A DNA stretch of 7,332 nucleotides, taken from a virus (taxonomy: Duplodnaviria; Heunggongvirae; Uroviricota; Caudoviricetes). A program made the translations under genes and the position numbers. Location of the stretch: IMG/VR virus record IMGVR_UViG_3300022692_000022; one strand, written 5' to 3'. Each line of letters starts with the position of its first letter. Position 1 is the stretch's first letter. The notes beneath the pieces were generated by a model. The model was not told where the DNA came from. It did no database searches and saw nothing but the letters and a program-made list of their open reading frames with translations. Shown piece after piece: positions 5,521 to 5,780 of this stretch.

Positions 5521-5558
5521 TAAGGAGGACGGGAGGCGTGTGCCTCCCGTAACAAGTT
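5521..5558 (+). promoter_or_regulatory. Strong Shine-Dalgarno followed by a perfect 9-bp GC-rich hairpin, then an ATG
   Basis: AAGGAGG at 5522-5528. Stem ACGGGAGGC (5529-5537), loop GTGT, stem GCCTCCCGT (5542-5550), all nine pairs Watson-Crick. Then an 8-nt spacer AACAAGTT and ATG at 5559. There is no T-run after the hairpin, so it is not a canonical intrinsic terminator. Confidence 0.4.
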
Positions 5559-5780
5559 ATGGCAAAGATCCGATATCTGCAGGGCACGCATGATGCCCGG
5601 GCCGGGGATATCCGTGATGTGGCACAGCCGTGTGCGGAGGTGCTGGTTCGCCTGGGAAAGGCGGAGTACATCACGGTGCGACGTCCGGCAGGTCAGAAAA
5701 AGAAACGTGATGCGGAGCATGGCGAATGTGGAACCTTTTACGGCGAACCCGAAAAAACCAGAAATCAGGACGTGACGTAA
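5559..5780 (+). CDS. Small hypothetical protein between the capsid and portal genes
   Basis: 73-codon ORF. The first ~45 residues look protein-like (MAKIRYLQGTHDARAGDIRDVAQPCAEVLVRLGKAEYITV) and the C-terminus is basic and low-complexity. It overlaps the predicted portal start by 55 nt in a different frame. It is preceded by the SD/hairpin element. I do not recognise the family. Confidence 0.4.
   Translation: MAKIRYLQGTHDARAGDIRDVAQPCAEVLVRLGKAEYITVRRPAGQKKKRDAEHGECGTFYGEPEKTRNQDVT

What the first reader, a model, noticed from the sequence alone, without database searches (positions are those of the whole stretch)
5521..5561. Strong Shine-Dalgarno separated from its start codon by a perfect 9-bp hairpin
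AAGGAGG (5522-5528) lies 30 nt upstream of ATG 5559, too far for normal initiation. The intervening 22 nt form a perfect GC-rich hairpin (5529-5550), and when folded this brings the SD to about 8 nt from the ATG. Structure-dependent SD-to-start spacing of this kind has been described for a few phage genes, for example T4 gene 38. The same hairpin sits directly after the capsid stop codon, so it could also act as a 3' stabiliser or attenuator for the abundant capsid message. Either way it marks a deliberate expression boundary between the capsid gene and the downstream small ORF and portal.
Basis: partly seen in the sequence, partly recalled or inferred. Interest (0 to 1): 0.5.

Follow-up and report, generated by a model that had tools for sequence, protein, structure and literature searches.

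The report
Hairpin-bridged ribosome-binding site after capsid gene
In a common E. coli Stx-type prophage, the ribosome-binding sequence of the small gene after the capsid gene sits in front of a very stable RNA hairpin instead of next to the start codon; the layout is conserved across enterobacterial prophages and looks like a new example of the rare "split" ribosome-binding sites known from phage T4.

Summary
The window has TGA 5512-5514, AAGGAGG 5522-5528, a perfect 9-bp stem with a 4-nt loop at 5529-5550 (about -18 kcal/mol), an 8-nt spacer and ATG 5559.

The window is the head module of BP-4795/2851-type Stx prophages, found in 1248 of 5426 complete E. coli genomes.

Across 79 distinct enterobacterial versions of this junction:
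- GGAG(G) abuts the stem (-1 to +3 nt) in 76.
- The stem-to-ATG gap is 6-11 nt, constrained in length but free in sequence.
- 78 have no SD-like motif in that gap.
- The stem is always paired, with compensatory changes at four positions.
- One natural variant carries a 14-nt insertion inside the hairpin with both flanks unchanged.

The 73-aa ORF is a real gene (median dN/dS about 0.2).

In 14 of 14 informative distant relatives a hairpin still follows the capsid stop, but the SD lies after it.

Best reading: an ancestral hairpin at the capsid mRNA 3' end (terminator-like in some relatives, no U-tract here) now bridges a split SD/AUG site of the T4 gene 25/38 type. No experiment exists, so the mechanism is inferred. 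This is a new member of a known, rare kind and is moderately interesting.

The parts
3577..5514 (+). Upstream gene: prohead protease / major capsid protein fusion (645 aa), ending at TGA 5512-5514
   Evidence: Pfam Peptidase_S78 + Phage_capsid; phrog_617 major head protein, E 2e-261; annotated as major capsid protein in RefSeq records
5512..5523 (+). Tandem in-frame stops TGA-GTC-TGA-TAA; the last one overlaps the first A of the SD
   Evidence: Sequence. Variant L030 has lost the first TGA and stops at the second. This rules out readthrough or a SECIS-type reading
5522..5528 (+). Shine-Dalgarno AAGGAGG, directly abutting the stem (0 nt gap)
   Evidence: GGAG(G) is conserved in 76 of 79 distinct enterobacterial junctions while the 6 nt upstream have about 2 bits of entropy
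5529..5537 (+). 5' arm of the hairpin, ACGGGAGGC
   Evidence: covariation
5538..5541 (+). Loop GTGT (GTGC in most E. coli copies; GAAA in most relatives)
5542..5550 (+). 3' arm of the hairpin, GCCTCCCGT
   Evidence: covariation
5551..5558 (+). 8-nt spacer AACAAGTT between stem and start codon; no SD-like motif and no U-tract
   Evidence: Spacer length is constrained (8-9 nt in the E. coli type, 6-8 in the Citrobacter/Enterobacter type) while its sequence varies
5559..5780 (+). Small ORF (73 aa here, 51-58 aa in relatives), function unknown; this is the gene the split site would serve
   Evidence: phrog_829; homologs across Enterobacterales; median dN/dS 0.21 over 1391 pairs with a conserved ATG; annotated as hypothetical protein WP_001063099.1
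5726..7332 (+). Portal gene (runs off the window end), starting at ATG 5726 inside the small ORF, with its own GGAG at 5714-5717
   Evidence: PGAP annotation; phrog_2271 portal; the same MWN... start overlaps the small-ORF stop as TAATG/TGATG in relatives

Best explanation
The element is a non-contiguous ('split') translation initiation region built around a hairpin that originally belonged to the 3' end of the capsid message.

Shown:
- A perfect-consensus SD (UAAGGAGG) directly abuts a very stable hairpin that is essentially always folded.
- Eight unpaired nucleotides then lead to the conserved AUG of a real, purifying-selected small gene.
- There is no other SD.
- The SD-hairpin-spacer-AUG geometry is conserved across enterobacterial prophages, while the sequence around it, the loop, and even the hairpin size vary.

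Inferred:
- The 30S subunit pairs with the SD while the hairpin loops out of the mRNA track. SD and AUG are then about 8 nt apart, plus the width of the helix end, which allows initiation at 5559 as in T4 genes 38 and 25.
- Ribosomes that start there also feed the portal gene, which overlaps or abuts the small ORF.
- The hairpin's older job, kept in distant relatives that have a normal downstream SD, is to mark the 3' end of the abundant capsid message. In relatives with a U-tract it would act as a partial intrinsic terminator. In this E. coli copy, which has no U-tract and sits in a lambdoid late operon, it would more likely act as a barrier to 3' exonucleases.
- Together the two roles would set a high capsid-to-portal expression ratio at one compact junction.
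For: Geometry:
- One search gives the coordinates; searches give stability (-18 kcal/mol; pairing probability 0.99).

Conservation:
- 16 genome loci from 10 other genera and 79 distinct enterobacterial junction sequences keep GGAG(G) within -1 to +3 nt of the stem (76 of 79).
- The stem-to-ATG gap is 6-11 nt. The looped-out SD-ATG distance is 5-14 nt against 23-38 nt linear. T4 gene 38 is 5 nt and gene 25 is 11 nt (PMC3014915).
- 78 of 79 have no SD-like motif in the 3' spacer.

Sharp conservation boundary, in 46 Citrobacter/Enterobacter-type sequences:
- GGAGG plus stem have zero entropy, while the 6 nt upstream have about 2 bits.
- The stop-to-SD spacer is 2-12 nt with 30 different sequences.
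- The 3' spacer has 26 different sequences but is 7 nt long in 39 of 46.

Covariation:
- The six core pairs are paired in 99.8% of cells, against 95.6% in column shuffles (0 of 2000 reach the observed value).
- There are 23 double-change cells against 3.1 expected (0 of 2000), at four positions in four lineages, plus a G-U intermediate.
- The tool count on a model-based alignment agrees in direction: covariation 0.126 against 0.082, 0 of 500.
- G-U pairs in the second E. coli allele favour + strand RNA.

Natural experiment: L126 has a 14-nt insertion inside the hairpin, giving linear spacing of 38 nt, with both flanks unchanged.

Real gene and start: median dN/dS 0.21, and the ATG is conserved at the same aligned position. 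The ORF cannot extend upstream because of TAA at 5550-5552.

Internal contrast: the TerL-capsid junction in the same window has the canonical order, hairpin, T-tract, AGGAGG, 5 nt, GTG.

Outgroups: in 14 of 14 informative distant junctions the hairpin follows the capsid stop and an SD lies after it at normal spacing. There is exactly one SD per junction, placed before the hairpin only when the hairpin is 11 nt or less from the ATG.

Coupling to the portal gene: TAATG/TGATG overlaps in relatives.
Against: - There are no experimental data of any kind for this junction. I found no paper mentioning it or the protein.
- In silico the SD is only partly accessible: P(unpaired) is 0.35 in the window and the median is 0.19 in the Erwinia/Pantoea type, where GGAG pairs weakly with the U-tract.
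- In the Erwinia/Pantoea type the looped-out spacing (9-14 nt) is at the long edge of what works.
- Three of 79 sequences have degenerate SDs (AGGA, GGGGA).
- The hairpin exists in outgroups without the split layout, so bridging is not its only or original function.
- All enterobacterial copies are orthologous, so conservation counts lineages, not independent inventions, and the compensatory events number about four.
- Terminating ribosomes from the heavily translated capsid gene could re-initiate at 5559 without classical SD use.
- The portal has its own GGAG, so portal expression need not depend on this site.
Confidence: 0.6

Rival explanations
1. The hairpin is only a 3'-end element of the capsid message (intrinsic terminator, attenuator or exonuclease barrier). 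The upstream GGAGG does not act as the SD of the small ORF. That ORF would be translated by re-initiation of ribosomes that have just finished the capsid gene, or weakly without an SD.
For: - A hairpin follows the capsid stop in all outgroups regardless of where the SD is.
- Many relatives have a U-tract after the stem: T count in 8 nt reaches 7, the Erwinia/Pantoea median is 5, and L084 is flagged as terminator-like.
- The capsid stop is only 44 nt from ATG 5559.
- In Erwinia/Pantoea types GGAG pairs with the U-tract and extends the stem.
Against: - GGAG(G) is invariant while neighbouring bases are random. An A-tract would pair with a U-tract better than GGAG does.
- The E. coli type keeps a perfect AAGGAGG although it has no U-tract at all.
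- The length-constrained, sequence-free 3' spacer is unexplained by a pure 3'-end element.
- Outgroups always supply a separate SD when the hairpin is far from the ATG, so this gene normally relies on an SD.
- The stop-to-SD distance varies from 0 to 14 nt, which fits poorly with a fixed re-initiation geometry.
Confidence: 0.2
2. The arrangement is a deliberate translational brake. Placing the hairpin between the SD and the AUG keeps initiation on the small ORF, and on the coupled portal gene, low relative to the capsid gene. The hairpin would then be inhibitory rather than enabling.
For: - Portal is needed at far lower copy number than capsid (general phage biology).
- The small ORF is coupled to, or overlaps, the portal start.
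- The SD is partly sequestered in silico.
- Looped-out spacing reaches 14 nt in some relatives.
Against: - A brake would not need an invariant strong SD, nor a tightly fixed 3' spacer length.
- In the T4 precedents the equivalent hairpin enhances initiation relative to unfolded mutants (PMC3014915).
- This rival differs from the best explanation only in degree, since a split site may well be weaker than a canonical one.
Confidence: 0.1
3. The hairpin is an operator for an RNA-binding protein, for example the small basic protein itself acting autogenously or a head protein. That protein would control translation of the small ORF and portal gene, in the manner of phage coat-protein or RegA-type repressors.
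For: - The small protein has a basic tail and a predicted domain that superposes on the rRNA-binding N-terminal domain of ribosomal protein bL9.
- The hairpin lies inside its own initiation region.
- GAAA tetraloops dominate in relatives.
Against: - Loop sequence and size are not conserved: GTGT, GTGC, GAAA, TTCG, 10-nt loops and an 18-nt insertion loop all occur. Stem sequence differs between lineages, which argues against sequence-specific recognition.
- The bL9 resemblance has no sequence support, and Foldseek E-values are about 0.1.
Confidence: 0.05
4. Chance juxtaposition of an SD-like heptamer and an inverted repeat, with no function.
For: Each feature alone is not rare: 0.18 hairpins and 0.55 AAGGAGG are expected per window.
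Against: - Conservation across 10 other genera and 79 distinct sequences, with compensatory stem changes.
- An abrupt entropy boundary at the SD.
Confidence: 0.02

Closest known systems
Split / non-contiguous translation initiation regions of phage T4 gene 38 and gene 25 (gene 26-25 intercistronic junction)
   Same: - The SD is too far from the AUG in linear sequence (22 and 27 nt in T4, 30 nt here).
- A stable hairpin lies wholly between them and reduces the spacing to 5 and 11 nt in T4, 8 nt here (5-14 nt in relatives).
- The site is at an intercistronic junction of late morphogenesis genes.
- The structure is conserved in close relatives and absent in distant ones, which use a canonical arrangement (PMC3014915 section 29; PMC7297116).
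   Different: - The T4 cases are backed by mutagenesis, lacZ reporters and DMS probing. This one rests on comparative evidence only.
- The bridging hairpin here is homologous in position to a hairpin at the capsid gene's 3' end, which is terminator-like in some relatives. It probably has a second role, which I am not aware of being described for the T4 sites.
- This is a temperate lambdoid Stx-type prophage module rather than a virulent T-even phage.
Rho-independent (intrinsic) terminators and intercistronic stabilising stem-loops placed after abundant structural genes
   Same: - A GC-rich, very stable hairpin lies 14 nt after the stop codon of the most highly expressed gene of the operon.
- Relatives carry a U-tract after the stem.
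- The same window has a canonical terminator-like hairpin after TerL.
   Different: - The window copy has no U-tract (AACAAGTT) and is not flagged as terminator-like.
- The next gene's SD lies upstream of the hairpin rather than downstream, which is not how terminator-plus-RBS junctions are normally arranged (compare 3538-3579 in the same window).
Structured initiation regions that tolerate or exploit hairpins (E. coli rpmE, thrS, fis), as summarised in PMC7297116
   Same: Stable structure within the ribosome-binding region that is not inhibitory and arranges the recognition elements.
   Different: In those cases the SD is at a normal distance from the start and the structure lies upstream. 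Here the hairpin lies between the SD and the AUG.

Membership tests
Split (non-contiguous) translation initiation region, T4 gene 38/25 type | SD complementary to the 16S rRNA 3' end lies too far from the start codon in linear sequence (more than about 15 nt) | tested here: met
   AAGGAGG ends 30 nt before ATG 5559; 23-38 nt in 79 relatives
Split (non-contiguous) translation initiation region, T4 gene 38/25 type | A stable hairpin lies entirely between the SD and the start codon and brings them to a functional distance (5-11 nt in T4) | tested here: met
   The 22-nt hairpin at -17.8 to -18.9 kcal/mol has pairing probability 0.99 and a residual distance of 8 nt; 5-14 nt in relatives
Split (non-contiguous) translation initiation region, T4 gene 38/25 type | No alternative SD at canonical distance from the start codon | tested here: met
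   The spacer AACAAGTT has no SD-like motif; the same holds for 78 of 79 relatives
Split (non-contiguous) translation initiation region, T4 gene 38/25 type | The arrangement and the structure are phylogenetically conserved, with base-pair covariation | tested here: met
   0 of 2000 shuffles reach the observed pairing or the observed number of double changes
Split (non-contiguous) translation initiation region, T4 gene 38/25 type | Stem-destabilising mutations reduce initiation and compensatory mutations restore it; the structure is confirmed by probing | not testable with these tools
   Needs reporter fusions, toeprinting, and DMS or SHAPE probing
Split (non-contiguous) translation initiation region, T4 gene 38/25 type | The downstream start codon is really used | tested here: inconclusive
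   The ATG is conserved, the ORF is under purifying selection (dN/dS 0.21) and an upstream extension is blocked by TAA 5550-5552. No proteomic or Ribo-seq evidence is available
Rho-independent terminator | GC-rich stem-loop | tested here: met
Rho-independent terminator | U-tract (at least about 5 U in 8 nt) immediately after the stem | tested here: not met
   The window tail AACAAGTT has 2 T in 8 nt and is not reported by the scan. The feature is met in some relatives (L084; T count up to 7)
Rho-independent terminator | RNA 3' ends map to the tail | not testable with these tools
   Needs Term-seq or 3' RACE after prophage induction
Intercistronic mRNA-stabilising stem-loop (3' exonuclease barrier) | A stable hairpin immediately 3' of the cistron needed in excess | tested here: met
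   The hairpin starts 14 nt after the capsid stop. A hairpin at this position is found in all enterobacterial relatives and 14 outgroups
Intercistronic mRNA-stabilising stem-loop (3' exonuclease barrier) | Processed 3' ends at the hairpin and a longer half-life for the upstream segment | not testable with these tools
   Needs RNA-seq, Northern blots or half-life measurements
Stop-codon readthrough / SECIS / frameshift stimulator | An open extension frame beyond the stop codon | tested here: not met
   Three in-frame stops within four codons. The stop-to-hairpin distance and frame vary among relatives
Any curated Rfam family | Covariance-model match | tested here: not met
   No match near 5500 at E up to 1

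The most novel reading that the evidence does not exclude
The junction is a single bifunctional RNA device. The same hairpin ends or protects the capsid message and is also the obligatory bridge of the next gene's ribosome-binding site. Expression of the small ORF and portal gene would then be set as a fixed fraction of capsid expression. In addition, the small basic protein it controls, whose predicted fold matches the rRNA-binding N-domain of ribosomal protein bL9, would bind RNA (its own hairpin or the ribosome) to tune late translation.
Probability: 0.07. Interest if true: 0.75.

Novelty: new member of a known kind. Interest (0 to 1): 0.45.

Why it matters
Split ribosome-binding sites are textbook curiosities known mainly from two T4 genes. 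This would be a further example, with strong comparative support. It sits in a prophage head module carried by about a quarter of sequenced E. coli, including Stx-converting phages, and by many other Enterobacterales.

Practical consequences:
- **Annotation.** RBS-spacing rules would not recognise this SD, and some gene callers instead extended the ORF through the hairpin.
- **Evolution of compact junctions.** It shows how a hairpin at a gene's 3' end can be co-opted into the next gene's initiation region.
- **A test system.** Natural variants (three spacing classes, a hairpin insertion, copies with and without a U-tract) are available for testing how the 30S subunit accommodates a looped-out helix between the SD and the AUG.

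Tried and rejected
- **Rfam.** No known RNA family at the site.
- **Readthrough, SECIS or frameshift.** Rejected because of three tandem stops and variable frame and distance.
- **Mini-ORF in the loop.** GTG 5538 lies 9 nt after the SD and reads GTG-TGC-CTC-CCG-TAA. It is not conserved, since loops in relatives (GAAA and others) have no start codon.
- **Upstream in-frame ATG at the stem base in some Erwinia/Pantoea relatives (GGAGATGCGGGG).** Some gene callers used it. It is not conserved (TAG, AGG, TTG or TAA elsewhere) and has 0-nt spacing from GGAG.
- **Alternative pairing of the SD with CCUCC in the 3' arm.** Only 5 bp with a 14-nt loop, not competitive with the 9-bp stem, and not possible in relatives.
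- **MAFFT alignment A3 and covariance-model alignment A4.** Both put the Erwinia/Pantoea 5' arm one column out of register. I therefore made a structure-anchored count with my own shuffles. That count is biased towards pairing, because the helix was located by pairing.
- **Terminator scan of L114.** It found nothing because the G-T-tolerant stem extension uses up the T-tract.
- **Literature searches for the protein accessions and for capsid-downstream hairpins.** Nothing specific was found.
- **Identity of the small protein.** No Pfam hit even at E = 10, no significant PDB sequence match, and hhalign against the bL9 N-domain gave under 1% probability.
- **Minus-strand ORFs 5490-5897 and 5477-5674.** No family hits. 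They overlap real + strand genes, and I treated them as spurious.

Full report
**What is there.**
- The 645-aa prohead-protease/major-capsid fusion gene (3577-5514) ends at TGA 5512-5514. Two more in-frame stops follow (TGA 5518, TAA 5521).
- AAGGAGG occupies 5522-5528 and directly abuts a perfect 9-bp stem (ACGGGAGGC 5529-5537 / GCCTCCCGT 5542-5550, loop GTGT).
- Eight nucleotides (AACAAGTT) separate the stem from ATG 5559, the start of a 73-aa ORF (5559-5780).
- The portal gene begins at ATG 5726 inside that ORF.
- The hairpin folds at -17.8 kcal/mol alone (z = -5.7) and -18.9 kcal/mol in the 41-nt context (z = -3.6). Its pairing probability is about 0.99 in a 180-nt context.
- It is the only perfect hairpin of 9 bp or more in the window (0.18 expected). 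AAGGAGG occurs twice (0.55 expected). Each feature alone is therefore weak evidence; the case rests on their juxtaposition and on conservation.

**Where the window comes from.** It is the packaging and head module of BP-4795 / phage 2851 / JLK-2012-type Stx-converting lambdoid prophages (Marienburgvirus). These have 94-98% identity over the whole window.
- The 1.2 kb around the junction is present in 1248 of 5426 complete E. coli genomes.
- Every annotation calls the small ORF a hypothetical protein.

**Comparative evidence.**
- I collected relatives using the capsid C-terminus: 23 loci from other species' genomes and several hundred viral contigs.
- In 16 genome loci from 10 other genera the junction reads: capsid stop, variable spacer, GGAG(G), GC-rich hairpin, short spacer, ATG of a homologous small ORF. 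The genera are Pantoea, Buttiauxella, Citrobacter, Enterobacter, Kluyvera, Atlantibacter, Kosakonia, Erwinia, Phytobacter and Entomohabitans.
- After deduplication there are 79 distinct enterobacterial junction sequences.
- GGAG(G) ends -1 to +3 nt from the stem in 76 of them. Three have a degenerate AGGA or GGGGA.
- The stem-to-ATG gap is 6-11 nt. The linear SD-ATG distance is 23-38 nt, and the looped-out distance is 5-14 nt.
- Only one sequence has any SD-like motif in the 3' gap.

**Three junction classes.**

| Type | SD to stem | Stem to ATG | U-tract |
|---|---|---|---|
| E. coli | 0 nt | 8 nt | none |
| Citrobacter/Enterobacter | last G of GGAGG is the first stem base | 6-7 nt, once 8 | weak T-run |
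| Erwinia/Pantoea | GGAG, usually 2 nt (0-3) | 7-11 nt | often 5-7 T |

**Conservation boundary.** It is abrupt. In 46 Citrobacter/Enterobacter-type sequences:
- GGAGG and the stem are invariant, while the six preceding bases have about 2 bits of entropy.
- The stop-to-SD spacer ranges from 2 to 12 nt with 30 different sequences.
- The 3' spacer has 26 different sequences but is 7 nt long in 39 of 46.

A spacer that is constrained in length but free in sequence is what a spacing requirement predicts.

**Natural insertion variant.** L126 carries a 14-nt insertion inside the hairpin. The insertion forms a second small helix (-24.6 kcal/mol) and raises the linear distance to 38 nt, yet both flanks are unchanged.

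**Covariation.**
- MAFFT and a covariance-model realignment both mis-registered one clade. Even so, the tool count gave covariation of 0.126 against 0.082 in shuffles (0 of 500).
- A structure-anchored count over six homologous pairs in 79 sequences gave 99.8% paired cells against 95.6% in column shuffles (0 of 2000 shuffles reach the observed value).
- The same count found 23 double-change cells against 3.1 expected (0 of 2000).
- The double changes are G-C to A-U at two positions, C-G to U-A at one, and G-C to A-U in one sequence at a fourth. They fall in four lineages, so there were about four independent events. One E. coli variant carries the G-U intermediate.
- G-U pairs in the second E. 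coli allele favour an RNA structure on the + strand.
- Caveat: the helix was located by pairing, so the paired percentage is biased upward. All copies are orthologous.

**The small ORF is a real gene.**
- Median pairwise dN/dS is 0.21 over 1391 pairs, and it is below 1 in 99.9% of them.
- There is a conserved core of about 40 residues and a basic tail.
- Homologs occur throughout Enterobacterales, all annotated as hypothetical and none with a Pfam domain.
- The ATG is at the same aligned position everywhere. In the window the frame is closed upstream by TAA 5550-5552.
- In Citrobacter/Enterobacter-type relatives the ORF is 55-56 aa, and its stop overlaps the portal ATG (TAATG or TGATG), the classic coupling arrangement.
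- In E. coli that stop has mutated (GAATG), so the ORF runs 55 nt into the portal gene.

**Outgroups.**
- In 14 of 14 informative distant junctions a GC-rich hairpin with an unrelated stem sequence follows the capsid stop. A separate SD (GGAGG, GAGGA, GGAG, GGGGAGG, GAGGAGG and others) lies between the hairpin and the ATG at normal spacing. These are Serratia and Rouxiella with the homologous small ORF, Marinobacter, two alphaproteobacteria, and nine metagenomic viral contigs.
- Apart from Serratia and Rouxiella, I assigned the outgroup start codons by eye.
- The hairpin after the capsid gene is therefore old and general, and the SD-before-hairpin layout is derived in the enterobacterial clade. 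There is always exactly one SD. It sits before the hairpin only when the hairpin is within 11 nt of the ATG.
- The same window provides an internal control. At the TerL-capsid junction the order is canonical: hairpin 3538-3555, T-tract, AGGAGG 3566-3571, 5 nt, GTG 3577.

**Mechanism.** The best-supported reading is a split, non-contiguous initiation region. The 30S subunit pairs with the SD, the constitutively folded hairpin loops out, and the AUG is presented about 8 nt away.
- This is the mechanism established for T4 gene 38 (22 to 5 nt) and gene 25 (27 to 11 nt) by mutagenesis, reporter fusions and DMS probing. It shows the same phylogenetic pattern: close relatives have it and distant ones do not (PMC3014915 section 29; PMC7297116).
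- The hairpin's older role is tied to the capsid message's 3' end. In relatives with a U-tract it qualifies as an intrinsic terminator (L084 is flagged).
- The window copy has no U-tract and is not flagged. In E. coli a role as an exonuclease barrier, or simply as the bridge, is more likely than termination. This fits a lambdoid late operon, where transcription is normally made terminator-resistant by Q (general knowledge, not tested here).
- The geometry, conservation, covariation and coding status are shown. Use of the SD by the ribosome and the RNA-level role of the hairpin are inferred.

**Weak points.**
- There is no experimental evidence, and I found no literature on this junction.
- The SD is only partly accessible in silico: P(unpaired) is 0.35 in the window and 0.19 at the median in the Erwinia/Pantoea type, where GGAG pairs weakly with the U-tract.
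- Looped-out spacing reaches 14 nt in some relatives.
- Re-initiation by ribosomes terminating 44 nt upstream cannot be excluded.
- The portal gene has its own GGAG.

**Comparison and novelty.** The element meets every sequence-level criterion of the T4-type split initiation region. The functional criteria are untestable here. It fails the U-tract criterion for an intrinsic terminator in this copy. It matches no Rfam family and is not a readthrough or SECIS context.
- I class it as a new member of a known, rare kind.
- The added twist is that the bridging helix is positionally homologous to the hairpin at the capsid gene's 3' end.
- Interest is moderate. It is not surprising in principle, but it is well supported, widespread, relevant to annotation, and easy to test with the natural variants.

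Noticed in passing
window 2586-2685: A run of 100 N (assembly gap) lies inside the large terminase gene. The 457-aa 'TerL' ORF (2140-3513) is therefore an artefact: relatives have a 553-aa TerL, and the window is about 286 bp shorter than they are across this stretch.
   Followed up: partly
window 3538-3579: The TerL-capsid junction has a terminator-like hairpin (GGACCGC-TGCG-GCGGTTT) with a long T-tract, followed by AGGAGG 3566-3571 and GTG 3577 after 5 nt. 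The capsid gene is thus bracketed by hairpins, and this junction has the canonical hairpin-then-SD order.
   Followed up: partly
window 5559-5780 (protein): The AlphaFold model of the small protein has a confident beta-beta-alpha-beta domain (residues 1-40, pLDDT about 85) and a disordered basic tail. Almost all of the top PDB fold hits are the N-terminal rRNA-binding domain of ribosomal protein bL9 (rmsd 0.8-1.4 A over 35-41 residues, 25-33% identity). Foldseek E-values are only about 0.1, and there is no sequence-profile support.
   Followed up: partly
window 5723-5780; L086, L088, L100, L117, L145: In Citrobacter/Enterobacter-type relatives the small ORF's stop overlaps the portal ATG (TAATG or TGATG). 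In E. coli the stop is mutated to GAA, so the ORF is extended by 18 codons and overlaps the portal gene by 55 nt.
   Followed up: yes
window 5538-5552: A GTG in the hairpin loop lies 9 nt after the SD and opens a 4-codon mini-ORF (GTG TGC CTC CCG TAA) that ends 6 nt before ATG 5559. It is not conserved in relatives, whose loops have no start codon.
   Followed up: yes
L126:2119-2169: One viral contig has a 14-nt insertion inside the hairpin that forms a nested second helix (-24.6 kcal/mol). The SD and the 7-nt spacer are unchanged, making it a natural test of tolerance to hairpin size.
   Followed up: partly
P0101, P0105, P0115 (Pantoea and similar homologs): Gene callers extended some homologs upstream through the hairpin ('MRGEIPALF-MKQ...'), starting from a non-conserved in-frame ATG at the stem base. 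This is probably a mis-annotation caused by the unusual position of the SD.
   Followed up: partly
window 211-552 and 926-1291: Upstream of the terminase genes the window encodes a TonB C-terminal-domain protein (Pfam TonB_C, E 6e-15), a possible cargo gene. BP-4795 does not match the window before position 730, while JLK-2012 carries the gene annotated as a TonB family protein. An HNH endonuclease gene sits next to terS, as in cos-type HK97-like packaging modules.
   Followed up: no
window 5512-5523; L030: Three in-frame stop codons within four codons end the capsid gene. One variant has lost the first TGA and stops at the second, which shows the back-up stop in use.
   Followed up: partly
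L101 and L102 (Hydrocarboniphaga effusa): Two copies of a distant relative in one genome have no hairpin at all. The next ORF's ATG lies 3 nt after the capsid stop (TAAgccATG), a third solution for the same junction.
   Followed up: no
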